The position numbers and the translations under genes were made by a program. Below the pieces are notes generated by a model. It did no database searches and was not told the origin of the DNA. It saw only the letters and a program-made list of their open reading frames with translations. Below are positions 19,301 to 63,918 of a stretch of DNA of 64,000 bases, piece after piece. Every line of letters starts with the position of its first letter. Position 1 is the first letter of the stretch. Origin of the DNA: Botryllus schlosseri. Taxonomy: Eukaryota. The stretch lies in assembly GCA_051294905.1 (NCBI GenBank), contig CM119371.1:5024001-5088000 (forward strand), written 5' to 3'.

Positions 19301-19360
19301 AGAGAGCGTTTGATGTGGGATGCTTCAAGAAGTAAAGTAATATACAGATAATCCAGAATA

Positions 19361-20827: not shown

Positions 20828-21282
20828 ATAGCCATGGACATACACATTAGGGAGTAAAAAATTTGCATGTCAGACGTGCGGAAAAGCGTTTACCCGCCTT
20901 GGTGCCTTGAAAAGAGATAGAAATACACGTACAGTAAAATAGCAGAACGCATGTCTTTTTTTTTCTCGCGAAGATGATCTCGAACACGATGCAGGCATAT
21001 TGACAGCTATACCTTATATTAAAATATGCTGTTGCTAAGAGTGGACGTCCATTCACTCTGCTATCATGTCAATACGATTTAATTTATCTTTGAATCACCT
21101 TCCCGGCTAAATGTTTACTGTGCCGGGTATGTAAAAGTGGAGGTGGACTTGTATCTTCGTGTTACCAAGCCTCTTCCACATATCCATTTAGTTTTGCCAC
21201 AAAAAAAATCTGTATACGTTGGTTTTCTCATCTGATTTTTTTTTCAGTTTGAAATTGTTTCTCCTAGTTTCATATTGGAATT

Positions 21283-29245: not shown

Positions 29246-29435
29246 ATTGATTTGGATTTGATTTCACAATTATGTCTGAAAAAGTACGAAAGAGATCTCT
29301 GAATTAATTGTGTGATGACTCTACTGGGAACCATACAAGCGAGGTCCATTTCTTGGCAAAGGCGAATTTGCCAAATGTATTAAACTTACTGAAATCTGAA
29401 GAAAACAAGCTTTCGCTTGTTAAAATGTGCCAAAA
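29246..29435 (+). pseudogene. PLK1: Polo-like kinase 1 pseudo-exon (first kinase exon), copy 2
   Basis: KEISELIV..DSTG..YKRGPFLGKGEFAKCIKLTEI*RKQAFAC*NVPK. AG acceptor at 29244-45, candidate ATG at 29272, donor mutated. Confidence 0.88.
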
Positions 29436-29938
29436 TTGAGTCGTCTTATTGGCACTATAGAATATGTGTGAATGCTAATGTATTTTTCACCTGTACTAAT
29501 ATAATTTTGTAAATACTCTTGTGAAAACAAATGTGGGAAAGACCTTGAAATTTGCCATTTCTACATGCTTTTTATAACTAGAGCTAGCCCGACTTCGGAT
29601 TTTTGAGCCAATACCGATGAAATTGATACCTCAATATTCTTCTAGATTAGGCCATATTTTAAAAAATGTAACAGCTTCACAGTCATTTTTATGCCTGGAC
29701 ATGGAATAAACTAGAAAGTCTGCATATGGACACTTGTAAGATATAAGGAGGCTATCAATATTTCCTGTGTAGCAGTCGCGGGGTGTCTGTGACCACGTTG
29801 CGCCCGCGCAGAAATTATCGATATTTTTTGCCTCTCATAGCCGATGCCGATATGTTTTGTGATATCTATGCGGTGTTATTGGCAAACCTATCATGGGCAG
29901 GGCAATAAATGCAAGCATTAATCTGGCGTTCATTTCAG

Positions 29939-30070
29939 GCACTTCTAGGGAATAAGCCTCGTAAAGAAAAAATGTGTCAAGAGACCAGTCTCCATAGCAG
30001 GTTGAGCAACAAACAAGTCGTTCGATTTGATGGATTTGTGAAAGAAAAGAATATTTTCTATATGTACTTA
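29939..30070 (+). pseudogene. PLK1: PLK1 pseudo-exon (alphaC/hinge exon), copy a, 3'-degraded
   Basis: tttcag|ALLGNKPRKEKMCQETSLHSRLSNKQVVRFDGFVKEK versus PLK1 [36 protein letters not shown]. Confidence 0.8.
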
Positions 30071-31050
30071 ATCAAGCAATTGTACCTGATTTCATAAATA
30101 ATTTCGAGAATTACCTCGCAGGCCACACCTAACCTTCTCGTGTGCCAAATTTAGCCTGCGTGCCATGGGCTGGCCGCACCTTATCTGTATGTTTATTAAT
30201 AACAGTGATTGGTGGTACATAAAAATTATATTGAAAATTTTTTAAAAGCAAATGTTTTCATGATAGAGAAGTCGGAGTCGAAGTCAGGGTCAATCTCACA
30301 AACTCCGAGTCCAAGTCCAGTCATTATTTTCCCTCCGACTCCGGCTATTATAGTTTTCACGACTCCGACTCCATCAAGCGAAAATTACACAGACTCCGAC
30401 TCCACAGCCCTGATTCGGACACTTATAAGATATAAAAATATATTAATATTTCCAGTGTAGCAGTCGCATATGATAGTTCTCTGACTCATTACTACCATGC
30501 TGTGACATCATGGATATTGCCGATATATTTTCCCTCGTGGCTGATACCGATATTTCTCTTCAAGTCTTATATCAGTACCCAGTAGGCGACTGATTATATT
30601 TGTCGCATGCATCAATGCCATTTTTTGATAATATTGTAAATTGCCATTCTTGAATGCTTATTATAGCTAGAGTATGACTAATATGGGATTTTAAGCCAAT
30701 GCCGATAGAACCGTTACCCATAGCACCTTCGCCCATAACTTCGATATTCTACTAGCTTGGGGACATTTCAAAAATATAGCGGCTTCACAGTCATTTCTAT
30801 GCTAGGACATGAAATAAACTAGAAAGGATGCATCCGGACACTTATAAAATACAAAAACATATTAATATTCCCAGTGTAACAGTCGCATATGATAATTCTC
30901 TGACTCCTTACTACCATGCTGTGACATCATTGCCGATATCTTTTCCCTCGTGGCTGATACTGATATTTCGCAGTACCCAGTACGATATTTTCGGCGCACT
31001 TATAATGGGTCGCGCTTTGATTACAAGCATTAATGTCGTGTGAATTTCAG

Positions 31051-31199
31051 GTACTACTCGTGAATGAGCATCATAAAAGCAAAATATGTCTAGAGGTCCT
31101 TCTCCATAGCATTGTGAATCACACGCACGTCGTAGGATTTCACGGATTTTTCGTATACAAAGATTTTGTCTACATCGTTCTCGAATTTGCAAAAGACGG
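31051..31199 (+). pseudogene. PLK1: PLK1 pseudo-exon (alphaC/hinge exon), copy b
   Basis: tttcag|[45 protein letters not shown](-1 nt)CKRR|gtaaa. 149 nt, one base short of in-frame. Confidence 0.88.
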
Positions 31200-31862
31200 G
31201 TAAAAGGTTTTCCTTGTTATTTTTACAAATTTAGTGTGTATTACACTGTTGGTCATAATTCCATCAGTTCTCTCGGTTCATTAGTGACGGATCTGGTCAA
31301 CTAGAAATTTCTAGAAGTCACATTAGATATGGCAATCGCAAAATGCCGGTAATCTAATTCCAATCTAATTTGTCAAATGTTTCTCCCATTGTAATTTTAA
31401 TCTAATTTCTGTTTTTTTTCTGAAAATGCTACAGGAGAACTGTTTAGTGCATAACCATAGTGTCCTATATGGCTATATGGTGTCGACACAGGAAAATCTC
31501 ACGCCTCAGTGAAATTGTATCACGTCACAATTTCCATTTGGCTACAGGCAATTTGACAGTCATTTTTGAACGGCTTGCCGAGCAGCAAATTTGGTAAAAC
31601 GGGTATCAATCGAAAGCTGACTCTGCACTGAGTACGAAACTATTAATTTTATTCCGCTCGTGGCCCTGGAACTCCCGCAAACAGCCTTGAATTTTTCATT
31701 GTTATGGAGATTGACATTGGGAGGCAACAATGCTGTCTGGTGAAACGAGAGAGTAGCTCAAGAGAAAAAGAGAATAATTAGAAATAGAATTAGTCAGAGA
31801 AAGACGTAGTTAGTTGCTCGCCACCGAACTAGATTGGTGATTTGTACGAGTCTCGATTTCAG

Positions 31863-32002
31863 GAAATGATCGTCAGAAATAGAAAATGTGTCGAGAGATG
31901 AGTCTCCATCGCAGTTCCAATCACGAGCATGTCGTTGGATTTCACGGATTTTTCCAAGACGAGGATTTTGTCGACATCGTTCGCGAGTTGTGCAAAAGAA
32001 GG
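31863..32002 (+). pseudogene. PLK1: PLK1 pseudo-exon (alphaC/hinge exon), copy c
   Basis: [42 protein letters not shown]|gtaaa versus PLK1 [41 protein letters not shown]. Confidence 0.92.
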
Positions 32003-33224
32003 GTAAAAGCATTTTCTTGATACAACTGTAATGTTTCTCAAAGTGTTGCGCAATTGCATCAGCTCTGTAATGTTCATTACTGGCGGACTTTGGACAACTA
32101 CATACTTCTTGTCTAATCAACCTAAATGGAGCCAAATATTGGTAATCTTGTGAGAGTCTGATTTGTCAATGCGTTTACGGCACGTCCGCAGTTAAATTTT
32201 AATGCAATGTCTGGTGTTCCTAAAATGCTACACGAGAACTGTATCGTACGAAACGAGCCAAGCTTCATGTGTAGACATTTGGTATTGGCGTGTATATAAG
32301 AATAATCCCAGATGTGATATGAACTGACACCGTATTTTTGTACAAATTCTTTGATGAAATGATTAATTATAATATAGTGGAAAGACTTGTGTAGGGTGTA
32401 GCTATCACTGTAATTCTAGTCCAATTTGAAAAAAAAAACGTGTTTAGCTATTATTGTAATTCTAATCTAGTTTCGAACAGCTGAAAATTCTCTAGTTGCA
32501 CAATTCCGACCACTAGGGGCTTGTCACAATGAATGTGGTATTCGAATCTGAATTGAGTAAATCATATTAATCGAGTCTGGTAGTGAAAACGATTTTTTAT
32601 AGTACTGAAATGATACCCTTTTTGCCACAAGAGGTGAAATGATTAAAAACAAACTGAGATTAACTGGGAGTGAATTTATCAATGAGAATTATAGTTTCGA
32701 TACTATTTTCAACTGTTGAAAGCTGTAAACCTCAATTTGCAGTATCACGGCATATGAAGTATGTAGTACAAAGTTATGCACGTTACTAGAAATGATATAT
32801 CTGTGACGTCGTGATCAATCACAGCATTGACAACATAGTGCAATGAAATAGGCGTGGTCGAAAATAGACAAATTGTCTTTAATAAGATGTAGGACTGGCA
32901 GTATATTGTTTGTAGCAGCGTGAACGGTAGTCCACATATTTGAATTTTCTCATCAACCATGCTGGTATGGCACCATAATAAGTAATACTCGAATACTCGA
33001 CTCGAAGCCTACTACTCGAGTCAATTTCAAATCAGTAAGGTTGTCAAATATCAAAAAGGCAGCATGAAATGAAGTTTTAATTTGGAACGTTCATCTGCGC
33101 AAAAAAATTGCTGTCGGATTTTACTGGCCCGCTAGCTCAAAAAGGGTGGGAACTGCTGATTTAGATGTTGCAGCAAATGCTTTTAGTTTTTTCATCCTGT
33201 CAATCCTTTAATATATATTGCCAG

Positions 33225-33350
33225 TCGCTGATGGGAGTTTACAAAAGATGGCGCCCCATCACAGAACCAGAGACTCTTTCTTTCATGTAGCAGATTGTGC
33301 TTGGAGCCGTTTATCTTCATCACTGTAAGATCAGTCACAGAGATATTATG
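33225..33350 (+). pseudogene. PLK1: PLK1 pseudo-exon (alphaD/alphaE to HRD exon), copy a
   Basis: cag|SLMGVYKRWRPITEPETLSFM*QIVLGAVYLHHCKISHRDIM|gta, 126 nt. Compare [42 protein letters not shown]. Confidence 0.9.
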
Positions 33351-34061
33351 GTAATATTGCTTGCATTTGACTAGGTCAGAGGTCATCAGTAGCGAAGTAC
33401 TTTTACATTGTCATGGTCAGACTTGGACAACTAAATATTCATAGCGGAGTTATCTAATAAAACTAATTGGAGCGAATGTCTGAAATCTAATTCTATTATA
33501 ATTTGATAAGAGTTTCTATACTCTCAATTCTAATCTAATTTCTGGTTTTCCTGAAATTGCTACAGGAGAACTATGTAGCGCGAAAGGAGACAAACTTACT
33601 GTACAAACATTTGTCATCCTCGTGCCCATGAGAATGAATTCTGATTTGATATGAACTGAACTTGATTCCATGTCGCAAGGTTTCACGAAATCAGTTGTTA
33701 TAAAAACTGTGTAGCTTGTATTTTAATTCTAATCTAATATGGAAAAGTAGCTATCATTCTAATGCTGATCTGATTTGGAAATAACTGTGTAGATATCATC
33801 ATAATTATGTTCGAATATGGAAATTAACTCTGTAACTGTAATGCTGATTCTAGACTGATTTAAAAAAGCTGAAAATTTTATAGTTGTATAAGTCTGCGAA
33901 TCTGCTTATCCTGATACTTGAATCTTTTTCTATCCAAATACAATTCCTGATTGGTATTCTAGTTTGAATTCACAAATCCCGATAGACAAACAATGTTATG
34001 AAAATGTTAGTTACTATCTGTGATTTTTTTCATATCTGTGATCTTCTCATTAGAATGTTAG

Positions 34062-34206
34062 AAAACGGCTCCTGTAAAGGAAGTGCGGGCGATCAAGTAT
34101 TTCAACGGCTCCATTCCTCAGAAACTGCCCATAACCTGATTGCCAATGGCGCCTAGAATTTCGGAAAGCCAACTACAGCAAAGGCGTCTTCTCCTGAGTT
34201 TCAACA
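34062..34206 (+). pseudogene. PLK1: PLK1 pseudo-exon fragment (kinase C-terminal extension / interdomain linker)
   Basis: VKEVRAIKYFNGSIPQKLPIT*LPMAPRISESQLQQRRLLLSFN|gtgagt versus PLK1 [24 protein letters not shown]...RKPLTVLN. TGA at 34137-39 replaces the Cys codon. Confidence 0.75.
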
Positions 34207-34786
34207 GTGAGTTTTTTCGTAAGTCTTGACAAAATCGAGTTCCTGATTTATTAGATTCTGAATGGAGTATTATGTTACGAGTCGCGTGCTCGAGTCTCAT
34301 CATAACTAGAGCCCGACACGACAGATATCTTATTTTTGAGCCAATACCAATATGTAGCACCTTCACCGATAACCTCGATATAATCGACTTCTATTGAAAT
34401 AATATGGAAACTAGCTTAAGACATATTTCCAGGCCTTCATAGTATTTATTTGAACCACTGTGCGGGCGTTGCTATACTTGGACATGAAATAAACTAGAAA
34501 GAATGCATCTGAACGCGTGTAAGCAGAGTCAGTCAGTAGCAATAGTACCTTTACTTTTACAGAGTACTCGATAAGGTTTTGCCTCGCGGCTTCACCATTA
34601 TTAGTAGTGACGACTCGGAGACGGCTGCAAGAACATCACACAACGGAAAACCGATATCATGATTCATGACAAACAAAGACACATGTTTTCTTGTTGATCG
34701 CCAACTAAAATATTTTTACATACACAACTAGAACTAGAATTACTCACTTTTTAAGATCCGCAACTAAATCTAGTATCTAATTTCAG

Positions 34787-34935
34787 GCATTGCTTGTGAA
34801 CAAGCATGAGGAAGACAAATATGTCAAAAGATCGGTCTCCATCGAATTTTGAATCACAAGTACATCGTTGGATTTCACGGATTGTTCCAAGACAAGCATT
34901 TTGTCGACGTCGTTCTTGAGTAGTGCAGAAGAAGG
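34787..34935 (+). pseudogene. PLK1: PLK1 pseudo-exon (alphaC/hinge exon), copy d
   Basis: tttcag|[47 protein letters not shown]|gtaaa, with a frameshift and a stop. Confidence 0.9.
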
Positions 34936-37049
34936 GTAAAAGTATTTCCTCATTATAGACTTGATGTACCTCTAACTGCGACGATCAAAAATGCATTAGA
35001 TCTGTCATGCTCATTACCAGCAGACTTGGATAACCAGATCACTATTTTTCTATAATGTATTGGGCTAAATATGGCAAAGTACTTGTCATGTAATTCCAAT
35101 CTAATTAGTCAACTAATTCTTTATATATAGTGTGAAACAAGTCAAGATTGGTGAACTATTCTCATGCTTATGATAATCAAGTCCGAATTGACATGAACTG
35201 AACTTGATTTCTTTTCCCAACTAGGTAAATAAATTCTAATCTACTTTTAATAATGTGATCATTTCCTAGTGACACAACTATGATGACTTGTGCTAGGCAC
35301 AGTGATTCGATGATTCAAATCTGAATCGAGTATCAATTCTGATCATTTGAGTCGAGTAGTCGGAAATGATTGTTTCGAGTGCTGAAAATATACGCTCCAT
35401 GCCTCAAAATTGAAAAATTATACTTACTATGAGCTGAATTGAACCACTGGGAATTATATTTCTCACTGTGAAAATCTGTGAACATTGATTGGTCGTATCG
35501 CAGTATACGAAACATGTAGTACAAAGCTATGCACGTTGCTGAAACGCACATGTAGCTGTGAAGTCGTGACATGTAGGCTAAGATAGATGATTTTGGCCTG
35601 AATACCAAATCAACTTCATGAGGCCCACACAACTATATTGCCCCTTAAAATCTCGGCAACAAGGGACGCAGTTTTGAAGCAAACAACTAGTAGTTGGGTT
35701 GTGTTTTGTGCGTGTAATGCAACATTGAACTGGGACTTCATAAAAGTAGGTTACATATGTCTTGAAGATAGCGTTTTGCAAAATCGAGTACCTGAGTGAT
35801 TTGGTTATTACTCGAGACGAATATCCGAGTATCTCTCATGACGTCATAACATTATGAATGATTATGTAATGTCCAAATATTCACATTTTATATGATCGCC
35901 ATGCAGGGTTTGTAACCAAGTCACAAGGTCCCGAGTCGCAAGGAAATCTCACTTTTGTAGTTTTGACTTGAGTCCAGTTGAGTCATTTTTAATTCACCAA
36001 CCAGTCAAGTGCAAGTGAATGAGTAGATGGGCGAGTCCAAGCCCAAGTGTTGTGGCTGGAGTCCGAGTCCAAGTCATCATGTTAACTGTTGAGTGTTGAG
36101 CTCAAACTGATTCAAACCAATTTTCAACTCTGCTCGAATGATATAGAATTGCACACATTCATAACACCGTATTCCCCCTCAGACCTAACAGTTTCTGACA
36201 GACCAATTACCAATCTTGTGGTGATTTTAATATTCTTTGAAGTTATAATGAGCTGTCTGTCTTGGCCATCCTAGTCATATGTCTTGGTTTGAGTCATGCA
36301 CAATGACTCGAGTACAAGTCGTGTCAATACATAAGTTGACTCGAGTCGTGTCACTAGAAAATTAGGACTCGTTTTGAGTGATGAATCTAGCCATCACAGC
36401 CCTGCCACTGTGAATATAATGTCGGTACTACATCTCATTATAAAGATAATTTAGTCATTTTCGACCATACCTATTTCACTGTACTTTGTGACAATGCTGT
36501 GGCTTGATCACAATGTAGGCAATACCGCATATCGAGTTTTACAGCCTTCCACAGTGGAAATGCCATTGAAACTATAATTCTCATTGATAAATTATGGTAA
36601 CTGTTAGGGACAACAAGTGTATATTTTCAGTAAATATACGGATATAGCGACACGATATCAACACTAAAATACCATGATTTTTTCAGCATTTTGTCTATTC
36701 ACCCATCTCAACGACCTTCCGTGAAGCCAGTTGTCTCCAGCTACTTTGTGAAAGCCTACATACCTCAAAAACTACCGACCATCTGCTTGCCTATCACAAA
36801 TGTCAACGCGAGACAATCTTAACCGGTGAGATTTTTACGCATCAAGTTAACAATTAGATCTTGACCAAAACCAACCAACGCGAAAAACAATTTATTTTAT
36901 CGTTTATAAATTTTCACATGTTCATGGGAAGCATTGGTTTCATGGGGATCACTTCTCGATGTGTGGAGAATAACGAAGAAGTGCCCCCTTTTTAGCTCGC
37001 TACTGGACTACGAGCGGTGGCACTGCCACACATGCTGTGCATTACGCTT

Positions 37050-37314
37050 GAAACACAGGGTAACGTATCACGATTTCATTGCAGTACTTCACATCAAGAA
37101 TTACTTCGCATATGATGGGTGGGCTGCTGTGATGAAGGCATTCCAAAGTAAATGTAGTCAGAAGGACTGGTACTGTGGAGTATGTCACCTTCAACTTACA
37201 GAGAGCAATTCAATTCGTTGTGACTCCTGTCTCTACCGGGATCATCTCCTATGTGCTGGACTAAACACTTCCCCGAAACAAAACAAATGGTCCTGTGGCC
37301 GCTGCAAAAAATAA
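37050..37314 (+). pseudogene. PHD-finger (C4HC3) coding remnant, probably the C-terminus of a decayed DNA-transposon protein
   Basis: WYCGVCHLQLTESNSIRCDSCLYRDHLLCAGLNTSPKQNKWSCGRCKK* has all 8 PHD ligands, and there is no intact upstream ORF. A transposon origin (for example MULE/SWIM-type) is inference. Confidence 0.75.
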
Positions 37315-37752
37315 TAGATGCCTCTGTTAGAAAAATAGGTAGCGGCAACTTTGAAATTGAAAGTACTTTATTGTTAGTTTTCATGATTGATGTTCCCAGT
37401 GAGAACACGCTATCAATGCTCAAATATCTTGGAAGCAGCAAATTGTATGCACAGCATTTACTGTCACTTGCAATATGGAACGTACGGAAATGCCAGCATG
37501 CATACCAGATTAACACCCAATGATCATATATACATTGAAAGTTATACACAAATATTTTTCGAACAGTTTGTCGTATGTGTTCGATGACTTTTTCATACCT
37601 GCTTGTGCTTAAGTTGTTCACTCCCTTAATACAAGACCCTCGTCGAAGGGAAATATCTACTTGGGCCCATTTAATAGCTACCTAACCAAGAGATCTATCA
37701 ACTGACCTATCATTTTGAATGGGTTACCATCTGTGAATTGCTGTATGGCAAA

Positions 37753-37875
37753 TACCTCATTACCTCTTGTCGCCATAATAACACTCTTGCCATACCTGAT
37801 TACCTCTGATAGTCCTATTAACACTCTTGACCTACCTGATTGCCTCTGATAGTCGTATTAACACTGTTGCCCTAC
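37753..37875. repeat. Minisatellite, 3 x ~39 bp
   Basis: Unit tacctgattacctctgatagtcctattaacactcttgcc. Confidence 0.8.
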
Positions 37876-44989: not shown

Positions 44990-45110
44990 TGAGTTGACGA
45001 GGAGGAGCCTAGATAAACCTCCAACACGTGGGTAGCAATTTTAGAGTGGGACTCGAACCTCAACACATTGGGTTTTGTAGCTTTGGATTACACCACTGTT
45101 CTATCTCGCC
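44990..45110 (-). mobile_element. Degenerate tRNA-derived SINE head
   Basis: Minus strand tagaacagtgg (A-box-like) and GGTTCGAGTCC (B box) at tRNA spacing, with no complete cloverleaf. Confidence 0.5.
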
Positions 45111-51188: not shown

Positions 51189-51989
51189 ATATTAACCCTA
51201 ATTATCAATTCCGTCAGATCATGACGTCATTCCTTTGTGACGTCATCGAACTCGCATACCTAAGGAAAATTAGCGTTCGGCGCCTATGTCGCCAGAGGGT
51301 AATGCCACTCAGATTTTGGTAGTGGTCATAAACGTTGAAGAACTAGTGGTCTCCAAAAGATTGTCAAAGACATTCCTCTGTAGGCTAGTGCTATCGGAGC
51401 TGGTGTTTACTGCGACCAATGCCATGGCGCCTACTCCGAACCAGATATCCGTCCCTAATCGCCTGGCCTAACCGGGCTTACAGTGTATCACTTGTTCCAG
51501 AATTGTTTTGAATCTTTTATTCAGTCATACCGGTGAATTGTTGAAGGCATAGTAGATTAACAGTTTCGTGTCTTGTAGCTGAAATCTATCGAACGATCAA
51601 GTTGAAACCTGAACGTCCCAAATGTTCAATTGCAGCCAATATCTGAAAGGGAATCGGGAATGAAATTGTGATCTACAAAATATGTGCGAAAACATGTATG
51701 AGGAACTACTCGTCTGACTTGTGAGATTGCAGATCATCACAATGCCCAATAATACCACTAAACTGGTAATATTAGATGATCAATTTGATATTCTTGGATA
51801 TTGTTATTTATCACACTGCTCTGTTTTTGCTAATTCTTTCTGTATTTCAGATTGGGTTGCTATAATATAAGAATTATAATACTGTGTAATAGCTCATTTC
51901 ATGCTGTCATTGAATACTCGTTTTCAAGCAGAGAGCGGTTGATGTGTCATGCTTGAAGAAGTAAAGTAATATACAGATAATCCAGAAGA

Positions 51990-53180
51990 ATGACAAGGAT
52001 GATGTGCTGGATCTGTGGAAAGAGCTTCCATCGTAAGAATGGATATAAAGCTCACTTTCTATTCCACCTTATAGATAGAAATACCGAATGTGAGATCTGC
52101 GGAAAAATCTTTGCTGCAATCACTTTATTGAAAAAACATTTGATATCCCACAACTTTTCGAAAAATCATGAACGCAAGGGCATTGGCAAAGAGTATAATC
52201 CGATCGATCACTTGAAAAGACATGCGGATAAACGTACTGCTCACCTTGGAGTCAGAAGCCACGACTGTGAGATCTGTGGAAAGTCGTTTGTGCGGGTTGA
52301 CGCCCTGAAAACGCATGGAAATATACATACTGGAGTCAAAAACTATGAGTGTCGGATCTGCGGAAAAGCGTTTTTTCGGCTCAGTAACTTGAAAACACAT
52401 GAGAATATACATACTGGAGTCAAAAACTATGAGTGTCATATCTGCGGAAAAGTGTTTACCCAGCTTGTTGACTTAAAACGACATGAAAATACGCATACTG
52501 GGGTCAAAAACTATGAGTGTGAGATCTGCGGAAAAGTGTTTATTCTTCTCAGTAACTTGAAAACCCATGAGAATATACATACTGGAGTCAAAAACTATGC
52601 ATGTCAGATTTGCGGAAAAGCGTTTAACCAGCTTGGTGAATTGAAAACACATGGAATTACACATACCGCGGTAAAAAACTATGCATGTCAGCTATGTGGA
52701 AAAGTTTTTGCCAGGCTTGGTGATATAAAAAGACATGGAAATACACATACTGGAGTCAAAAACTATGCATGTCAGATTTGCGGAAAAGCGTTTACCCTGC
52801 CTGGTAACTTGAAAAGACATGGAAATACACATACTGGAGTCCAAAACTATGAGTGTCAGATCTGTAGTAAAGCGTTTAGTCAGCTCAGTAACTTGAAAAC
52901 CCATGTGCATACACATTCCGGAGTCAAAAACTATGCATGTCAGGTCTGCGGAAAAGCGTTTACCCGACTTGTTAACTTGAAAGAGCATGGAAATACACAT
53001 ACTGGAGTCCGAAACTATGAGTGTCAGATCTGTGGTAAAGCGTTTAGTCAGCTCAGTAACTTGAAAACCCACGTGAATACACATTCCGGAGTCAAAAATT
53101 ATGCATGTCAGACGTGCGGAAAAGCGTTTAACCGGCTTGGTAGCTTGAAAAGACATAGAAATACACATGCAGTAGAGTAG
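51990..53180 (+). CDS. Tandem C2H2 zinc-finger protein C (family 1), 396 aa, 13 canonical fingers
   Basis: Intact ORF with the same N-terminus as A and B (MTRxMCxICGKSFHRK). It keeps the terminal finger and stop (HRNTHAVE*) that is out of frame in A and B. Same upstream acceptor, ending at 51850. Confidence 0.92.
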   Translation: MTRMMCWICGKSFHRKNGYKAHFLFHLIDRNTECEICGKIFAAITLLKKHLISHNFSKNHERKGIGKEYNPIDHLKRHADKRTAHLGVRSHDCEICGKSFVRVDALKTHGNIHTGVKNYECRICGKAFFRLSNLKTHENIHTGVKNYECHICGKVFTQLVDLKRHENTHTGVKNYECEICGKVFILLSNLKTHENIHTGVKNYACQICGKAFNQLGELKTHGITHTAVKNYACQLCGKVFARLGDIKRHGNTHTGVKNYACQICGKAFTLPGNLKRHGNTHTGVQNYECQICSKAFSQLSNLKTHVHTHSGVKNYACQVCGKAFTRLVNLKEHGNTHTGVRNYECQICGKAFSQLSNLKTHVNTHSGVKNYACQTCGKAFNRLGSLKRHRNTHAVE

Positions 53181-55271: not shown

Positions 55272-56972
55272 ATCATTAGGCATATCAATTGAACTACCCA
55301 AAGCTACCGATATTACAGACACTGCTGGCGAGAGATTGATTATAGCTGCGGGCTGTACGGAAAATCACTTTTGGTCTGTGGTTTCACCTCTGTGCCACCA
55401 GACCAGATATTTATGGTTTAATTCGTGACGGTTGCTTCTCCAAGAACTCAGCAGCTGTAGAGCAAAACTAATGTCACTCCCTAGCCAACGTGATTGGGTA
55501 AGGAATAATATTACGCATAAAACTTGTAATGAATAATTGTACTGGCAACAGAGCACTAATCTTCTGTGGCAATCCGACACTATGGGGGCACATATTGGCT
55601 CAAAATCGTCATTCCCTGTTACTTTGATCCTATGCAAATTGCGAGCTACATAGAATGCCCTTTCGGAAGAAGTGTACAGAGCACTATGAAACATTGCGCC
55701 ATAGTAGAACTGTGATAGTTTTTGGCTGTCTGTCAATTGCATCACCTTAACCAGTGGCTCTCAACTGCAAATTTCCAGGCCTGTGCCAGTCTGCTTTAAC
55801 TTTTCAGTCGGCGGAACAAATATATATTTGATGTATTCGTAATCGCAAAATGTAAGAGGTGGGAGTCTTGTTCATAAATTATAGAACAAGAACACAGCCT
55901 TCATTTTTATCCGTCATCGCAGTGCTGCAATCGATGCAGCGATCTGTTTGAAAGTACCCAGAAACACGTTTATTAAGAAAAAAACATCACTTCATGTTCA
56001 GGCGTGCTTGGAACGAGATGTTTGATTATGGCTTAGGGTCAAAATTGGCTCCGTACATACTATTGCTTAAAAAAATGGCCAAAATGTCGATTTCAGATTG
56101 CATAGCTTTTGCTGGTCGGAATCGACCAAAATTTGGTATGTAACGTTGTTAGGCGACCTGACAATGTCATCACTCTGCGAGTGAAGTGTAAAAAACGTTA
56201 CAGCCATTCTGTAACAGCAGTTACGAGGGGATTGTTCAACCACCAATGTCTCATTGTTATTGAACGAATAAAATCCAGTAGATGAGATTTTGAGTCAGTC
56301 GGCAGTTTTGTCAACTTGTAAAGATCATACAGACAGCTTGTTATTTCTAGAAACAACGTGTTTTCGAACTTGATCCTTTATATCTAAAAATAGCCCTTCT
56401 ATGCCTTGCGAAATTGTGTTTTGTGCAGGGTTGTAATGACTCGAGTCACGATTTTGTGACGACTCGACTTGACCCAGTCATGTTTTCAAAATACGGAAAT
56501 GATTCGACTCGACATTGAGTCAATTTGTGCATTGACTCGAGTCATTGCGCATGACTCGAACCAAGTCATTAAACTCGACGCCAAAGACCGACATTTCATT
56601 GTTATTCAGAACAATAGTAAAGTAACCACACTATATTAGGATTACGTTTATTGGTCCTGGTACTTGAAAATGCGACCAGACACTGCTAAAGGTTGAGGAA
56701 ATAAGGATATTGTACGTGTAATATTGTTTAAAGGGCAGAATGATTTTGTTGTTTCTGTCTATTTTTTTAAACATGCTATATAATACCACATTTGAATACA
56801 ATGTAAATACAAATATCATGCAACTAGAGCTACAACTCGATCGATACTCACAACAAGAACTAGAACTACTCACTTTATGAAATGTGCAACTACAACTACA
56901 ACTACTCAAAATAACAGTAATCAGTCGACCATCAACTAATTCTATTAAAATTTGTACATGTCCAAATTTCAG

Positions 56973-57110
56973 GCACTTCTTAAGAATGAGCAATGAGCAT
57001 GTTAAATACAAAATGTGTCAAGAGATCATTCTCCATTGCAGTTTGAATCACAAGCACGTTTGATTTAAAGGATTTTTGTCGACATCGTTCTCGAGTTGTG
57101 CAAAAGACGG
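56973..57110 (+). pseudogene. PLK1: PLK1 pseudo-exon (alphaC/hinge exon), copy e
   Basis: tttcag|ALLKNE..KYKMCQEIILHCSLNHKHV*FKGF..VDIVLELCKRR, with an internal deletion and the donor lost. Confidence 0.85.
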
Positions 57111-57980
57111 ACAAGCGTATTTCCTCATTACAACTGTAATGTATATCTAACTGTAGTGATCGCAATTACATCAGATTTGTAACGTTCATTAGCGAGCCCA
57201 CTTGGACAACTAGATAATCCCAGTTGCCTAATTAAGACTTATTATAGCCAAATTCCGGTAATCTAATAATATTCTAATTTGAGAAATACTGTCATTTTAA
57301 TTCTAATATAATTTATGGGTTAACTGAAAATGCTGCAGGAGAACTGTATAGTGCGAAAAGAGTCGATTTTGGTGTACAGAGACTTATCATTCTCTTGCTA
57401 TGAAAATGAACTGTTATTTGGTATGAAGTGATTTGGTTTTTATTGCATTTGTTTTACGAATTAAATGATTCTAATCTAATTTCGATAACTTGTGTAGCTA
57501 TAACTTTAATTGTAATCAAGTTTAAAAAATTTCTCGTTACCCAACTCTGATCACTAGATCGCGACCGATATCGTATTTTTAAGCCAAAACCGATAAGTAG
57601 CACCCTGGCCGTTAACCACAATCGGCCGATATTGAAATGAAATGGCAAGTAGCTTAACACATATTTCCAAACCTTCAGAGTATTTAGTTGGCCAACGTTA
57701 CATTTGAACAACTGTAAGCATGGTCAGTCAGTAGCAATAACACTTCTACTTTTACAGAGTACTCGTAAGGTTTTGCCCCGCGGTTTCACCATTATTAGTA
57801 GTGATCACTCTGAGACATCTGCAAGAACATCACACAATGGGAAACCGGTATCATGATTTACGACAAAGGAAGACACATGTTTTGTAGTTGATCGGCAACT
57901 AAAATATTTTTACATGCACAATCAGAACTACGGTACTCACTTTTTAAAATCTACAACTAAATCCAGTACCTGAATTTCAG

Positions 57981-58129
57981 GCATTGCTTGTGAAGTAGCA
58001 TGAGAAAGACAAATGTGTGAAGAGATCAGTCTCCATCAAAGTTTGAATCACAAGCACGTCATTGGAGTTCAGGGATTCTTCCAAGACTGGGATTTTGTCT
58101 ACGTCGTTCTTGAGTTGTGCAAAAGAATG
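57981..58129 (+). pseudogene. PLK1: PLK1 pseudo-exon (alphaC/hinge exon), copy f
   Basis: tttcag|[48 protein letters not shown]|gtaaa. Flanks 57720-58790 are collinear with 34520-35560. Confidence 0.9.
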
Positions 58130-59179
58130 GTAAAAGCATTTTGTCGTTACAATGTAGTATACTTCTAGCTGTGCCAATCGAAAATGCATTAGATCTGTCA
58201 TGTTCATTACTAGCAGTCTTATGCAACCATAAAATTATTGTTCTATACCGTACTATATTAGGCTAAATAGGGCGAAGTACTTGTAATGTAATTCTAATCT
58301 AATTAGTCAACTAATTCTACACATATAGTGTGAAACGAGTCAGATTGGTCAACTGTTCTCATGCTTATGATAATTAAGTCCGATTTGAAATGAAAGGAAA
58401 TTGATTTCTTTTCCCAACTACGTATTTGTAATTCAAATCAAATTTGGAAAAATGTGGTTATTATAATTCAAATTCTAATCTAGTTTGGATAATAATGTGA
58501 TATTTTTCTAGTTGCACCATTGCGATTTCTAGGGCTGAGCATAATGATTTGATGACTCAAATCTGAATTGAGTATCAATTCTGATAATTTGAGTCGAGTA
58601 GTAGTAAATTATTGTTTCGAGTACCGATAATATACACTCCATGCCGCGAAAGGGAAAAATTATATTAACAATAAGCTCAACTGAACCGGTGGAAATTATA
58701 CTTTCGATAATATTTCTCACTGTGAAAAGCTGTAAACCTTGATTGGTCGTACAGCAGCAGACAAAACATATAGTACAAAGCTACTCGCGTACATTGGAAT
58801 GGCATTTCCGAGTAGTCGTGATGGAATAGGTATGGTCATAAAAGTGCCACATAATCTTTATAATGTGACTAGAATCTGCATTATATTCTTTGTGGTGTTG
58901 CTGTGACGTTTACACGAGTGACTCAAACTCATTACTTGATCAAAATCAGATCAGTCGCACACTCTGTTTTGGCCAGCACTATTTATTACATGTTCGATTT
59001 CAAAAAACAAGTATTAAATGAAGTTTCTAGTTGGGAAGGTTCACCGGGGTGCAAAAACTGTCGTCAAGTTTCACTGTCCCTCAAACACAGAGAGGTTGAG
59101 AAACACTGATTTAGTGGCATCCAACAAATAATATTTTTTTCATTCCAGCAATCCAATTACCTTATACTTTTGTTGTCAG

Positions 59180-59305
59180 TCGCTGATGGAAGTTTACAAA
59201 AGAAGATGCGCCATCACAGAACCAGAGACCCGTTATCACTCACAACGGATTCTGTTTCGTGTAGTTTGTCGTCACAATTGCAAAATCATTTACAGAGATG
59301 TCAAG
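59180..59305 (+). pseudogene. PLK1: PLK1 exon copy (alphaD/alphaE to HRD exon), copy b, reading frame still open
   Basis: cag|SLMEVYKRRCAITEPETRYHSQRILFRVVCRHNCKIIYRDVK|gtaac, 126 nt with no stop. HRD has become YRD. Confidence 0.88.
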
Positions 59306-60425
59306 GTAACATTGTATGCTGTCGTGCATTCGTAAATAATCTTCGAAAATTATGTCAGAACCAGAGCCGACCGATTATTGATTTGTCAATTTGGTGATAA
59401 AACTATGCACATCATGTACCAGTAATGTAAAATGGTTGATGACGCTACAAGCTCTTGAAAGAGAATTTGGACCAATTACAGGATTTTCTACCAGAATCAC
59501 TTTTCACTTTTCTTTATACTCAACTTGAACCTACGACCATAGAAAATCCCCTATTAACTTACTAATAATACATAACTCACTAATGATTGTTTGGTTGCTA
59601 AATTACAAATGAGCTGAGAAAATTGGAGATAGAACTGGCATCTCAAATTGACGGGGTTTCGAGCTTAAAACGGGGATGGTATCGACCAACCCTGCCTATA
59701 CCACTTTTTGGCTGGATGACTCAGAGGTAGGGCTGCAATGATTCGAGTCATGACTCGACTCAAACTCAATTCACACTTATTTGGTGACTCGACCTAACTC
59801 GAGTCGTATGACTCAAGACCAGGACTATCACTGAAACTTCGAAGAATAGTAAAGTCACCACATGATTGGTATTTTGTATATCAGTCCTGATACTGGGAAA
59901 AAGGGCCAGAAACTGTCAAACTGAGGAAAGTAACGATATCATGAATGCGTGCCATTCTATATCCCCCCGAAGATAATTGGAAAAAGTATATTGTACTGAT
60001 AACTGAACAGTGAACATAATGACTCAGTTTTCTGCTAGCTAACTTGGACTCGGACTTGACTCGATGGTGAATTGAAAATGACTCGACTTGATTCGAATCA
60101 AAACTATAAAAGTGAGATTGACTTGTGACTTGGTTACAACCCTGCTCTGAGCTAGTAAAGGCTGCAAAAATATCGTGCAACAGAACACCGGTATCACGGC
60201 GACATACATTTTCTAGTTGTCGGCAACTACATTTTTTTGAATGAACCACTCACTATTCGAGATCTGCAACTACAACTGAAACAAATTGCTTTTAATTTTT
60301 TGCTATGCAACTAAAACCTGAATTCCTCAAAATGGCAGTAGTTTGTTGACCATCAACTACCTGGATTGGTAGTTTGTACAAATCAGTGTACCTGAGTAAT
60401 TTGAATATGAAAGTTGTATCGACAG

Positions 60426-60613
60426 CTTGGAATCTTTTCCTGAACAATATGGAGATGAAGATCGAAGATCTCGGAGAGATGTCAACCTGGCTACCAAAGT
60501 CGACTTTGACACAAAAATACTTTTTGCGGCACACCCAACTATATTGCCCCGGAAGTTATTGGAAAGAATGGGCACAGTTTCGATGTGGAGACCTGGTCGC
60601 TGGGCTGTGTTCT
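60426..60613 (+). pseudogene. PLK1: PLK1 pseudo-exon (DFG / activation loop / APE exon), copy a
   Basis: cag|[25 protein letters not shown]...[29 protein letters not shown]|gtgagt across frameshifts. Compare [62 protein letters not shown]. Confidence 0.92.
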
Positions 60614-62540
60614 GTGAGTATATAAGAACATCCATGTGAAACTTTATTAAACGGGAATTGCGGAGGTCTTAGGGGTAGGACTGGGAGAATTCGAGCAACT
60701 GAGTGATTTGATTCTGAATCCAGTGTTAGCCTTAGAGTCCAGTATCTGAGTATCAATCGATATGACATCAGTATGAATGATGTGGATAGTGCAGATCTGC
60801 AATTCTGCATCACATTGAAGATGATTTCGTATATTTTCGACCACGCCAATTATATCGCACTTTGTGACTTCACAGACGCTGCCCACCAAATTTGCCTCAA
60901 TTCCAAACAGCCGAACCGCAGCAGAGCCAATTGAATTTTTTAATTTTATTAAAAAAGGTTAAATTTTACTGTTAATCCAATGAAATTGCTAAGTTGTCTA
61001 AAAGAGTGATGCATAGCAATTTTCGCTCCCTTCTAACCAGCCCTAGTGGACAGTGCTGCCAAATCTATAATTTCTGTCGAGTAGCAAGGAAGGTATCATT
61101 TCGGTGCTCGAAAAATCATCTCTCATTACTCGACTGGAATCATTGTGCCCAGCCTTAGCTATTGCATATCGCAGAGGCTTCTGACGTTTTTATCAGCGAG
61201 GCTTGGCAAAATCTAGCATCTTGGTGATTTGGTTGCGTGTTAAGTATCCTGCCATGAAACCTACCAATCCATATTTTGACCTATTTTGCTTTTGCTATGA
61301 AAATGAATTTTTCCAGCCCTCGCCCCTCGTCACAATTGCAGTGCCATTATTTCAAAGCTTTAAGATCTTATTTCTTTACTTGACAGGTGCTACTAATACA
61401 GAGACACAGAAGCACATATGTGACAAACAAGAAGCGACCATCATTTGCAGTAATCAATCATTGGACTCAAGAAATTGATGCATACCGGCCAATCCGACTT
61501 TGAAGTTTGCTATAAATATGGGTTGGTATTTATGTAATCAGTAGCCTAATTGATTTCATTTTCAATCGACTTCCTTCTTACATGTAGGCCTACTTGTACG
61601 GATCAGAGATTTTATAGCATTCATGACTTTCACAACTGAAGAATATCATAAATTCTCTGTGCAAATCCAGTTTGTCAAATGACATTGACGCAAATCTGAC
61701 CGATATCTTGAAATCCATGCTAATCTCAAATTCATGTCAAGTTATAGAGATATCATAGATCCAAATTACGGCTGTTGCTCGCATGTGACGTTGTCGAGAA
61801 GATTGTTGACGCTTGGGCTGTGCACAATGAATCGGGTGTGTGCTTGAATCTGAATCGCGCATTATTTTTCTTGATTCCAGTCGAATAGTGAGAGACGATC
61901 CGTTCCGTCACTGAAACCTCGCGCTCCTTATCATTTAGAGTTGATTGATCAATAAAATGATTGCTTCCATACTCATGTCCAATGTACAAAGATGTAAACC
62001 TCGAGTGGTCATAAACGCAACATACTTAACATGAGGTACAAACATGCACGCATATTACTGGAACTGACATATCTGTGAAGTCGTGATCCATCTACAGCAT
62101 TGTCACAAAGTGCAATGAAATAGGTGTGGTCAGAGGGATAACAAATCATCCTTAATGTGATGTAGGACTGGCATTATATTGGTTGTAGTCGCGGAAAAGT
62201 TATTTAAGTTATTTAAACTTTCCACTTCATCCACACTGGTATGGCATCATAATAAGCCATACCGTATTCGAAGACTTGACTCGAAGCCTGATACTCAATT
62301 CAATTCCAAATCACCTAGGTACTTGATTTTTGGAAGCCCTACGTATAACAAGTCGAATATCAAAATGGGGCCATGAATTAAAATTTTTAATTAGAAAGGT
62401 TTATCGGTTCAGAAAATTGGTTGTCGAATTTTACAGGCCCGTCGACTCAAAAAGGTTGAGAACCAATGATTTAGATTCCCAACAAATAATTTTGTTGTTT
62501 TCATCCTGTCAATCCGATTACCTTTAATATGTGTTTTCAG

Positions 62541-62663
62541 TTGTGATGGAAGTTTACAAAACAGATGTGCCATCACAGAAGCAGAGACTCGTTATTAAAT
62601 GCGACTGATTCTGATTAACGTCGTTATCTTCACGATTGTAAGATCATTTACAGAGGTATCAAG
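62541..62663 (+). pseudogene. PLK1: PLK1 pseudo-exon (HRD exon), copy c
   Basis: Nucleotide paralog of 33225-33350 and 59180-59305 (atggaagtttacaaaa..gccatcacagaagcagagactcgttat..tgtaagatcatttacagag), with several indels. Upstream intron ~62050-62540 resembles ~32750-33225. Confidence 0.82.
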
Positions 62664-63222
62664 ATAATAATTGTAGTGTAGGGATCTAATGAAACTAAAT
62701 AGAGCTAGGCTGTAATCTAATTCTGTCCTGATTTGTCGAATTTATGAAATGCTCTCAATATTCTAATTTCTGCTTTTCCTGAAGTTGCTACAGGAGAACT
62801 GTATCTTGTGAAACCAACGAAGCACGGTGTTACAGACACGTGCGGTCTAAAAATGCCGAATAATCTGTATTGTGATTCCACTGTTTTTGGTTGCATGAAA
62901 GGACCTTATTTGAACTTTATACATCATTGATGCTTTTATCATGACATAATGAGTTTTACTGACATAGTCATCTTGATTCGAAGCCTAATACTCACTTCAG
63001 TTTCAAATCAGTCAGGTATTCGATTTTGCACAGCCCTACGTATAACAAGTCAAATATCAAAGTACCAGCGTGATATGAAGTTTCTAACTTGAAAGGATCA
63101 ACGATCTGCAAAATGTGATGTTGAATTTTTACCTGCACCCAAGCTCATTTTTATATTGACCCAACAAATAATGCTACTGATGTCATTCTATCAATCCGAT
63201 TAGCTTTGAATTTCGTTGACAG

Positions 63223-63347
63223 TGGCCGATGGATCTTGAGAAAGAAGACGAGTCATCGCAGAAGCAGAGACTCGATCTTACTTGCAACAGATTCTGGTTG
63301 GAGTCGTTTATATTCACGGCTGTGCGATCATTCACACGGATATCCAG
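63223..63347 (+). pseudogene. PLK1: PLK1 pseudo-exon (HRD exon), copy d
   Basis: RRRVIAEAETRSYLQQILVGVVYIHGCAIIHTDIQ|gtgac, 125 nt (frameshifted). Confidence 0.85.
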
Positions 63348-63732
63348 GTGACATTGTTTGCAGTGGCTCCAGAGAGTGCAAACTGCTGGATTTTTAATAT
63401 GTTCAACTAGAACTAGAACTACTCAGTTTTCAGAACTAAAACTAGAACCAACGACCGTTACAAATCCGCAACTAACTAACTAAAATATAGCTAAGATGAG
63501 TAATAATTGATAATTTAACTTCTGAATTACATATGAGTTCAGAAACATTGGAGATAAAATCGGCATTTTAAACAAACGGGAAGTGTTTGCTTTTAAAATG
63601 TTAAAATATAAGACTAAAACTAGAACTAATCAAAACGGCAGCAGTTTCCGTAGTTGGCCATCATTTAACTGGAATGCTAGTATGCACAACTTTATATACT
63701 TTTGTAAGTCGATGTGAAGTTTGTATTGGCAG

Positions 63733-63918
63733 CTGGAGAAGATCTTCCCGAACAATATGGAGGTGAAGTTTGAAGATTTCTGTTGAGCTGCCACGGTCGA
63801 CTGTGACAGGTACACAATGAATACTCATTGCGGCTGTCCCGACTATTAATGACCCGGAAGTTCTCGGCAAGAATGCACATAGCTTCAAAGTGGACACCTT
63901 GTTGCTGGGTTCTGTTTC
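63733..63918 (+). pseudogene. PLK1: PLK1 pseudo-exon (activation loop exon), copy b
   Basis: cag|LEKIFPNNMEVKFEDFC*AATVDCDRYTMNTHCGCPDY..PEVLGKNAHSFKVDTLLLGSV|gtgagt. Confidence 0.85.

What the first reader, a model, noticed from the sequence alone, without database searches (positions are those of the whole stretch)
29246..63918. Hidden array of at least 15 decayed Polo-like kinase 1 exons interleaved with the zinc-finger cluster
Seen: hand translation finds five different PLK1 exons in multiple copies. Gly-loop exon x2 (5126, 29246), hinge exon x6 (29939, 31051, 31863, 34787, 56973, 57981), HRD exon x4 (33225, 59180, 62541, 63223), activation-loop exon x2 (60426, 63733) and post-kinase linker x1 (34062). 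All are on +, mostly bounded by AG/GT, with duplicated intron flanks. Order is locally gene-like (1-2-2-2-3-linker-2; 2-2-3-4-3-3-4). Nearly all carry stops or frameshifts, and no polo-box exon was recognised. Known: PLK1/polo is normally a conserved low-copy cell-cycle kinase. Inference: a lineage-specific burst of DNA-level PLK1 duplication followed by decay, with copies diverged enough from each other to imply many rounds.
Basis: partly seen in the sequence, partly recalled or inferred. Interest (0 to 1): 0.8.

Follow-up and report, generated by a model that had tools for sequence, protein, structure and literature searches.

The report
Decayed PLK1 exon copies among zinc-finger genes
The window holds 17 broken copies of five exons from the front half of a Polo-like kinase 1 gene, lying between zinc-finger genes; they look like ordinary duplicated pseudogene debris, part of it copied after the sequence was already dead.

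Summary
In 120 PLK1 queries, 1509 of 1509 tblastn matches were on +. All 17 profile matches were also on +. The four exon types tested against solved structures match PLK1 ahead of PLK2, PLK3 and PLK4. Introns, splice sites and intron flanks were copied too, so the duplication was at DNA level.

The "burst of gene duplication, then decay" reading is only partly right.
- No copy has the C-lobe exon or any polo-box exon.
- Copy numbers differ by exon (6 hinge, 4 HRD, 3 activation-loop, 2 Gly-loop, 2 linker).
- The two Gly-loop copies share three identical stop codons, and two hinge copies share one, so dead sequence was being copied.
- Pooled dN/dS is 0.75.
- RNA reads show no spliced transcript, though that test had low power.

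Best reading: a partial, unprocessed PLK1 pseudogene amplified and rearranged by local duplication and deletion inside a fast-changing zinc-finger cluster. Interest is low to moderate.

The parts
3707..5393 (+). Solitary 5' fragment: about 1.4 kb of upstream sequence plus Gly-loop/N-terminal exon copy 1 (protein match 5223-5354).
   Evidence: blastn: 3707-4015, 4011-4447 and 5051-5360 match 28339-28666, 28738-29179 and 29171-29470 at 75-84%. HMM positions 45-88. DNA profile match 5119-5393. Shares three stops with the 29k copy.
28339..29480 (+). Upstream block plus Gly-loop/N-terminal exon copy 2 (protein match 29277-29435). This is the start of cluster A.
   Evidence: HMM positions 26-78, E 1.5e-9. 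Translation shows 4 stops within the exon, including TAA at the catalytic-lysine codon.
29942..30070 (+). Hinge exon copy 1, the most diverged. Open over the aligned stretch.
   Evidence: TTTCAG|G acceptor kept.
31051..31194 (+). Hinge exon copy 2. Open, with both splice sites kept, but ELCRRR has become EFAKDG.
   Evidence: HMM E 3.2e-12..
31865..32002 (+). Hinge exon copy 3, with one in-frame stop.
   Evidence: HMM E 2.3e-15. Best solved-structure match is human PLK1 at 1.3e-13, against PLK2 at 1e-5.
32195..32327 (+). Intronic repeat downstream of the hinge exon. Proposed recombination substrate.
   Evidence: Similar to 33526-33659 (73%). Both match 57200-57431 and neighbouring bases in cluster B.
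33222..33350 (+). HRD exon copy 1, with one stop.
   Evidence: HMM E 3.2e-9..
33421..33695 (+). Copy of the same intronic repeat, downstream of the HRD exon.
   Evidence: Matches 57200-57431 at 72% and 62666-62800 at 75%.
34071..34205 (+). End-of-kinase/linker exon copy 1, with two stops.
   Evidence: HMM positions 287-336, E 0.0029. Weak in tblastn (E 0.84-1.4).
34819..34953 (+). Hinge exon copy 4. Has two in-frame stops: a TGA just 5' of the matched stretch, shared with copy 58007, and one inside it (VLE*CRRR).
   Evidence: HMM E 4.5e-11. 34319-35529 matches 57562-58783 at 76% over 1274 columns. Shared TGA seen in the alignment.
35562..35708 (+). Activation-loop exon copy 1. Five stops and an 8-codon deletion.
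   Evidence: tblastn E 9e-6 and 1.4e-6. HMM positions 177-233, E 1.7e-7.
36685..36801 (+). End-of-kinase/linker exon copy 2. Open over 36 aa.
   Evidence: tblastn E 0.002. HMM E 1.7e-4. Best solved-structure match is PLK1 at 0.006; PLK3 scores 0.55.
56992..57128 (+). Hinge exon copy 5, the start of cluster B. Insertion and frameshift, internal deletion, donor lost.
57200..57431 (+). Intronic repeat at the point where cluster B lacks the HRD exon relative to cluster A.
   Evidence: Overlapping matches to 31877-32257 and 33421-33659.
58007..58126 (+). Hinge exon copy 6. Has the TGA shared with copy 34819.
   Evidence: HMM E 3.2e-14..
59156..59308 (+). HRD exon copy 2. Open, with HRD changed to YRD.
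   Evidence: HMM E 6.3e-10. Best solved-structure match is PLK1 at 6e-7, against PLK2 at 0.003.
60431..60617 (+). Activation-loop exon copy 2, the best preserved 3' part. Frameshifts and a stop in its 5' part.
   Evidence: HMM E 1.1e-16. Best solved-structure match is PLK1 at 7e-14, against PLK3 at 1e-10..
62557..62666 (+). HRD exon copy 3. Frameshift, a stop, and the donor GT changed to AT.
   Evidence: Two tblastn matches at E 0.003. blastn: 59013-59316 matches 62373-62675 at 73%..
63240..63350 (+). HRD exon copy 4. Stop just upstream, and HRD changed to HTD.
   Evidence: HMM E 9.5e-7..
63748..63916 (+). Activation-loop exon copy 3. A stop and a frameshift. The window ends 84 bases further on.
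   Evidence: Two HMM rows..
9911..12097 (+). Context: C2H2 zinc-finger gene 1, an 84-base periodic array. An in-frame stop at 10277-10279 splits the frame.
   Evidence: Pfam zf-C2H2 and zf-H2C2_2. Tandem repeat 10181-12097. ORF list.
19352..20939 (+). Context: zinc-finger gene 2.
26107..27652 (+). Context: zinc-finger gene 3, directly upstream of cluster A.
51981..53177 (+). Context: zinc-finger gene 4, upstream of cluster B.

Best explanation
These are non-functional relics of a partial, DNA-level (unprocessed) duplicate of the 5' half of a PLK1-type gene. The duplicate carried upstream sequence, the N-terminal/Gly-loop exon, the hinge exon, the HRD exon, the activation-loop exon and the end-of-kinase/linker exon. 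It had no C-lobe exon and no polo-box.

The copy sat inside a tandem zinc-finger gene cluster. It lost its reading frame early. It was then multiplied and scrambled, as dead DNA, by the local processes that drive turnover of such clusters: tandem duplication of exon-plus-intron modules of about 0.8-1.2 kb, one larger segmental duplication linking cluster A (about 31.8-35.5 kb) to cluster B (about 56.9-58.8 kb), and deletions between repeated intronic sequences.

Shown: PLK1 origin, the presence of introns, shared disabling mutations, the absence of the 3' half, the near-neutral substitution pattern, and colinearity of A and B with gaps.

Inferred: that unequal recombination between intronic repeats is the mechanism, and that the locus has no present function.
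For: 1. PLK1 origin. Hinge, HRD, activation-loop and linker pieces each hit PLK1 chains first and PLK2/3/4 below them. 1509 of 1509 tblastn matches and 17 of 17 HMM rows are on the + strand.

2. Unprocessed. Pieces lie 0.5-1.3 kb apart in gene order. AG/GT sites are kept. Flanks are duplicated at 66-84%.

3. Partial. HMM matches cover only profile positions 26-336. Nothing matches positions 234-276 or anything beyond 336, on either strand. A relaxed tblastn with C-lobe and polo-box segments gives only noise on both strands.

4. Dead before copying. The Gly-loop copies at 5.2 kb and 29.3 kb share TGATGA and TAA at identical positions. Hinge copies 34819 and 58007 share a TGA.

5. Exon-level copy numbers of 6, 4, 3, 2 and 2.

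6. Pairwise Nei-Gojobori over 22 pairs: pooled pS 0.30, pN 0.24, dN/dS 0.75. Hinge pairs mostly fall between 0.7 and 1.4.

7. The closest pairs cross the clusters: hinge 34819/58007 at K2P 0.20 and hinge 31865/56992 at 0.24. B is colinear with A, and the gaps fall at a repeated intronic element.

8. RNA. In three bulk RNA runs (about 6% of each run read), depth over 28.7-36.7 kb is 0-1.2. 1480 of 1546, 334 of 336 and 172 of 181 laid reads fit only in part. None of the 15 listed joints links pseudo-exons.

9. No transposon protein domain in 148 of the 182 flanking ORFs of 55 aa or more that were scanned.
Against: - Exons are somewhat more alike than their flanks. Among the 17 blastn pairs with at least 60 flank columns, exon identity is more than 1 point higher in 13, within 1 point in 3, and lower in 1.
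- HRD and activation-loop pairs give dN/dS of 0.37-0.93, five of the six between 0.37 and 0.56. Some duplications may therefore date from a time when the sequence was still constrained. Alignment guided by protein similarity, and gaps counted as mismatches in the flanks, push both measures the same way.
- The RNA test is weak. The neighbouring zinc-finger gene 3, meant as a positive control, is also at 0-0.4 depth. Only bulk libraries were laid, only about 6% of each run was read, and 150 joints were not listed.
- Cluster B runs into the window end at 64000, so later exons of its last copy could lie outside.
- No whole genome was available. The parent gene and the total copy number are unknown.
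Confidence: 0.8

Rival explanations
1. One reading: a lineage-specific burst of complete, functional PLK1 gene duplicates, each of which decayed independently afterwards.
For: Exons are on average a few points more similar than their flanks. dN/dS is below 1 for HRD and activation-loop pairs. Splice sites are widely retained.
Against: Stop codons are shared between copies. No C-lobe or polo-box exon lies next to any copy. Copy numbers are unequal across exon types, and there are three hinge exons in a row.
Confidence: 0.1
2. The exons are cargo of a gene-capturing transposon (Helitron or Pack-type) that spread them.
For: Many fragment copies are present. Interspersed repeats lie in and around the clusters, and several bins have very high DNA word depth.
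Against: All pieces are local, on one strand, in gene order and with their introns. The ORFs scanned show no transposase, Rep/helicase or reverse-transcriptase domain; 148 of 182 were scanned. The bins holding the Gly-loop exon and the first two hinge exons have DNA word depth of about 45-130, compared with 1e4-5e4 in the repeat-rich bins.
Confidence: 0.04
3. The array is maintained as a non-coding functional locus, for example a one-strand small-RNA source or a long non-coding RNA related to PLK1.
For: All 17 pieces share one orientation. Pseudogene-derived small RNAs are known in other animals (recalled, not checked here).
Against: Tandem duplication alone produces a uniform orientation. No transcription was seen in three bulk RNA runs, though power was low. 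The substitution pattern is near neutral.
Confidence: 0.04
4. The copies are an assembly artefact or a chance resemblance.
For: None found.
Against: Copies differ by 16-50%, so they are not collapsed or inflated reads. Independent short contigs of a DNA run cover all 30 bins of 24-44 kb, several with no differences, although that run may be the source sample. No match falls on the minus strand.
Confidence: 0.01

Closest known systems
Unprocessed (duplicated) pseudogenes in tandem gene clusters
   Same: Introns and splice sites were copied along with the exons. The copies carry disabling stops and frameshifts, show near-neutral substitution, and lie in a cluster that itself grows by segmental duplication (the zinc-finger units are 84-91% alike).
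   Different: The unit of copying here is often a single exon with part of its intron, not the gene. Only the 5' half of the gene is represented.
Partial PLK1-like copies of Daphnia pulex (POLO-F to POLO-K; PMC2680839, passages read)
   Same: A normally low-copy mitotic kinase is present as several truncated, rearranged or stop-containing PLK1-clade copies. The authors interpret them as pseudogenes or remnants of partial duplication.
   Different: Daphnia also has three intact PLK1 genes, and some of its partial copies have expression evidence. Here no intact copy is in view, the pieces form two dense arrays, and the organism is not identified.
PLK1 / polo kinase genes
   Same: The kinase-domain exons are clearly of PLK1 type.
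   Different: There is no polo-box, no C-lobe exon and no open frame. The catalytic-lysine codon is a stop in both Gly-loop copies. An intron splits the exon at ...VPK|ALL.... In 48 of 150 PLK1 fragments from other species that site is crossed without a break.

Membership tests
PLK1 (polo-like kinase 1) gene | Kinase-domain sequence closer to PLK1 than to PLK2, PLK3, PLK4 or other kinases. | tested here: met
   Hinge: 1.3e-13 for PLK1 against 1e-5 for PLK2. HRD: 6e-7 against 0.003. Activation-loop: 7e-14 against 1e-10. Linker: 0.006 against 0.55.
PLK1 (polo-like kinase 1) gene | C-terminal polo-box domain. | tested here: not met
   No HMM match beyond profile position 336 on either strand. Relaxed tblastn gives only noise. 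For cluster B the window end leaves this open.
PLK1 (polo-like kinase 1) gene | Open reading frame with the catalytic residues: the lysine of the AGK(I/V)VPK motif (after the Gly-loop) and the HRD aspartate. | tested here: not met
   The lysine codon is TAA in both Gly-loop copies. Stops or frameshifts occur in or beside 13 of 17 pieces. HRD reads HRD, YRD, YRG and HTD in the four copies.
Processed (retrotransposed) pseudogene | Introns absent, exons contiguous, poly-A tail. | tested here: not met
   Exon pieces are separated by 0.5-1.3 kb, with AG/GT boundaries and duplicated intron flanks.
Unprocessed duplicated pseudogene | Intron-exon structure copied at DNA level, together with disabling mutations. 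| tested here: met
Transposon-captured gene fragments (Helitron or Pack-type) | Copies bounded by transposon termini, dispersed in the genome, often beside transposon protein genes. | tested here: inconclusive
   No transposon protein domain in the 148 of 182 flanking ORFs scanned. Copies are local and colinear. Dispersal could not be tested because no genome was held.

The most novel reading that the evidence does not exclude
The one-strand array of PLK1 pseudo-exons is kept as a germline small-RNA (piRNA-type) or non-coding RNA source that tunes the parental PLK1. Alternatively, it is the relic of a lineage-specific, polo-box-less PLK1 paralogue that had an extra intron and tandem alternative hinge exons. 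No small-RNA or germline library could be laid, so neither reading is excluded.
Probability: 0.04. Interest if true: 0.6.

Novelty: new member of a known kind. Interest (0 to 1): 0.2.

Why it matters
This is a clean example of how a fast-turning zinc-finger cluster can multiply a dead fragment of an essential cell-cycle gene exon by exon. For annotation, it warns that PLK1-like hits here are pseudo-exons and should not be called as genes or joined into chimeric models. The shared stop codons give a rare direct ordering of events: death first, amplification after. The copies also preserve an intron position (VPK|ALL) that was crossed without a break in all 48 PLK1 fragments from other species that span it. 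If the parent gene has that intron, it would mark a lineage-specific intron gain. Beyond this, the finding is ordinary.

Tried and rejected
- Whole-genome search: no genome is held for this window. Copy number outside the window and the parent gene could not be examined.
- The search for homologous proteins with the 45-aa hinge piece, 'longer' mode: no candidate.
- The representative search returned 190 clusters, mostly fragments of 41-250 aa. At first sight this suggested a large family of diverged copies. Reading them showed intact orthologous exons from many species running into their own introns. I rejected them as evidence for an expansion.
- Organism: not resolved.
  - Summed tblastn scores favour slowly evolving vertebrate PLK1s for the hinge exons but an octocoral PLK1 for the HRD exons.
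  - The zinc-finger search gave nothing above 50% identity, from very mixed taxa.
  - The cluster look-up gave no useful names.
- Sequencing runs: no RNA holder was listed.
- Rfam: 0 matches.
- Earlier findings of this scan: nothing by place, sequence or words.
- Transposon domains in the flanks: none in the 148 ORFs scanned. The 34 ORFs in 21.0-26.1 kb and 53.2-56.9 kb were not scanned.
- C-lobe and polo-box exons: none.
- Literature: three full-text searches gave only the Daphnia pulex case. No paper was found on PLK1 pseudogene arrays in zinc-finger clusters.
- Weak PHD-finger-like ORF at 36910-37311: below Pfam cut-offs, and the TAF3 PHD match is E 0.002. Not linked to PLK1.
Full report
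**What is there.**
The window is AT-rich eukaryotic DNA with GC of 0.37-0.42. It contains four C2H2 zinc-finger arrays on the + strand with 84-base periodicity, at about 9.9-12.1, 19.4-20.9, 26.1-27.7 and 52.0-53.2 kb.

I obtained PLK1 comparators from public collections. One was a 484-aa octocoral PLK1, P0080. The others were 119 further PLK1 proteins of 476-738 aa, nearly all full-length, from cnidarians, sharks, amphibians, mammals, birds, turtles, coelacanth and sturgeon.
- tblastn with 120 PLK1 queries at E<=1e-3 gave 1509 matches, all on the + strand and none on the - strand.
- An HMM built from 114 of them, run on the six-frame translation with stops read as X, gave 17 rows, all on +.
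- Together with tblastn alignments and DNA-level similarity, this defines 17 pieces of five exon types.
- Gly-loop/N-terminal: 5223-5354, 29277-29435.
- Hinge: 29942-30070, 31051-31194, 31865-32002, 34819-34953, 56992-57128, 58007-58126.
- HRD: 33222-33350, 59156-59308, 62557-62666, 63240-63350.
- Activation-loop: 35562-35708, 60431-60617, 63748-63916.
- End-of-kinase/linker: 34071-34205, 36685-36801.

The activation-loop copy at 35562 and the linker copy at 36685 are new. DNA profiles of each exon family find no further copies in the window.

**Is it PLK1?**
Four exon types were compared with all solved structures, and each hits PLK1 first.
- Hinge: 1.3e-13 for PLK1, 1e-5 for PLK2, 1e-4 for PLK3.
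- HRD: 6e-7 for PLK1, 0.003 for PLK2.
- Activation-loop: 7e-14 for PLK1, 1e-10 for PLK3, 3e-8 for PLK4.
- Linker: 0.006 for PLK1, 0.55 for PLK3.

The pieces are PLK1-derived.

**How were they copied?**
- The pieces lie 0.5-1.3 kb apart in gene-like order.
- All six hinge copies keep a TTTCAG|G acceptor. Four keep a GG|GTAAAA donor and a fifth (29942) keeps a GT.
- All four HRD copies keep CAG|, and three keep a GT donor. The 62557 copy has AT.
- Intron flanks align between copies at 66-84%.

This is DNA-level duplication, not retrotransposition. Kimura distances between copies run from 0.20 to 0.88 substitutions per site, so there were several rounds of duplication of different ages.

**What is missing.**
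HMM matches cover only profile positions 26-336. Nothing matches the C-lobe exon (positions 234-276) or any polo-box position, on either strand. A relaxed tblastn with those segments gives only noise, equally on both strands. Cluster A is followed by 15 kb without any such exon. Cluster B runs into the window end. Copy numbers differ by exon type: 6, 4, 3, 2 and 2. The thing being copied was therefore a partial gene and then single exon-intron modules, not whole genes.

**Order of events.**
- The two Gly-loop copies, 24 kb apart, share TGATGA at the same place. They also share TAA at the codon that encodes the catalytic lysine in PLK1 (AGKIVPK reads AC*NVPK in both).
- Hinge copies 34819 and 58007 share a TGA. 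They sit in a 1.27-kb block that is 76% identical.
- Identical disabling mutations in paralogous copies mean the sequence was already dead when those duplications happened.
- Nei-Gojobori counts on protein-guided codon alignments over 22 pairs give pooled pS 0.30, pN 0.24 and dN/dS 0.75. Hinge pairs mostly fall between 0.7 and 1.4. HRD and activation-loop pairs fall between 0.37 and 0.93, five of the six between 0.37 and 0.56.
- Exons are a few points more similar than flanks in 13 of the 17 blastn pairs with enough flank sequence.

This leaves room for a short constrained phase in the oldest history. Both measures are biased in that direction by the method.

**Architecture and likely mechanism.**
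- The closest pairs cross the two clusters: hinge 34819/58007 at K2P 0.20 and hinge 31865/56992 at 0.24.
- Cluster B at 56.9-58.8 kb is colinear with cluster A at 31.8-35.5 kb. It lacks the stretch holding the HRD exon (about 32.3-33.4 kb) and the stretch holding the linker exon (about 33.7-34.3 kb).
- At the first gap, B 57200-57362 aligns both to A 32100-32257 and to A 33421-33580. These are two copies of one intronic repeat (32195-32327 is similar to 33526-33659).
- This is the footprint expected from unequal recombination between the two repeats. That step is inferred, not shown.
- In cluster A, the copy starting at hinge 34819 runs from hinge-intron sequence straight into the activation-loop exon, so it has lost its HRD exon.
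- A solitary 5' fragment at 3.7-5.4 kb matches 28.3-29.5 kb at 75-84%.
- The zinc-finger units themselves are 84-91% alike. They are younger than most PLK1 copies, which shows the region is still turning over.

**Expression.**
I laid three bulk RNA-seq runs of the same species label, with about 6% of each run read, and one DNA run on 24000-43999.
- Over the PLK1 pieces (28.7-36.7 kb), RNA depth is 0-1.2.
- Nearly all laid reads fit only in part (1480 of 1546, 334 of 336 and 172 of 181). That is typical of reads from repeats elsewhere in the genome.
- None of the 15 listed joints links pseudo-exons. 150 joints were not listed.
- The neighbouring zinc-finger gene 3 is also near zero, so the test has little power.
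- DNA contigs cover all 30 bins. The bins holding the Gly-loop exon and the first hinge exons have word depths of about 45-130, against 1e4-5e4 in repeat-rich bins. The pieces are therefore not part of a high-copy, near-identical family.

**Rivals.**
- Transposon capture is unlikely. The copies are local, colinear and on one strand, and 148 of the 182 flanking ORFs were scanned without finding any transposon protein domain. Without a genome, dispersal cannot be excluded.
- A functional non-coding role cannot be excluded, because no small-RNA or germline library could be laid.

**Known parallels and novelty.**
Three full-text searches found one relevant case. Daphnia pulex has three PLK1 genes plus six truncated, rearranged or stop-bearing PLK1-clade copies, interpreted as pseudogenes or remnants of partial duplication (PMC2680839, passages read). 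The present array is a further example of a known kind, an unprocessed pseudogene amplified within a dynamic gene cluster. Its unusually clear features are exon-level amplification and death before amplification.

The organism could not be identified from the sequence. I could not check whether the array is already annotated in that species.

**Verdict.**
This is best described as neutral duplication debris of a partial PLK1 pseudogene. Interest is 0.2.

Noticed in passing
window 29435/29942, and all six hinge copies: The copies preserve an intron between ...VPK and ALL..., with a conserved TTTCAG|G acceptor. In 48 of 150 PLK1 fragments from other species this site is crossed without a break. 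The parent gene may have a lineage-specific extra intron.
   Followed up: partly
window 10181-12097, 19618-20939, 26223-27652, 52306-53168: The zinc-finger arrays use an unusual inter-finger linker, H-T-G-V-K-N-Y, instead of the common TGEKPY type. The nearest database proteins are at most 50% identical and come from very mixed taxa.
   Followed up: partly
window 10277-10279: Zinc-finger gene 1 has a single in-frame stop that splits ORFs 9911-10276 and 10280-11848, which are in the same frame. It may be a young pseudogene or a variant.
   Followed up: no
window 14191-14844, 22771-23505, 55368-55760 (all - strand): Long ORFs of 131-245 aa on the opposite strand, downstream of three zinc-finger units. 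They are conserved between the units (blocks 83-91% alike) and have no Pfam match.
   Followed up: no
window 36910-37311 (+): A 134-aa ORF directly after the second linker exon has a weak PHD-finger resemblance: Pfam E 1e-4, below cut-off, and TAF3 PHD E 0.002.
   Followed up: partly
window 37340-38700 and 39340-40010: These are the only stretches of 24-44 kb with clear RNA depth (up to about 45 in X21). The reads carry fixed differences from the window, there is a 'goes back 206' joint from 38061 to 37856, and DNA word depth is high. This looks like an expressed repeat family, not a local gene. A 40-base tandem repeat lies at 37752-37875.
   Followed up: no
window 24000-24666, 30003-30669, 31337-32003, 39341-40007, 42676-43342: Bins with DNA word depth of 1e4-5e4, against about 50-130 in neighbouring bins. 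These are high-copy interspersed repeats, some of them inside PLK1 pseudo-introns.
   Followed up: no
window 5979-6224, 13256-13493(-), 21820-22058(-), 25321-25556(-), 45721-45973: An interspersed repeat of about 240 bases is present in both orientations at five or more places, 76-81% alike.
   Followed up: no
window 178-334: A short C-rich tandem repeat (periods 23 and 65, unit CCTAATATCCCACC...) near the window start.
   Followed up: no
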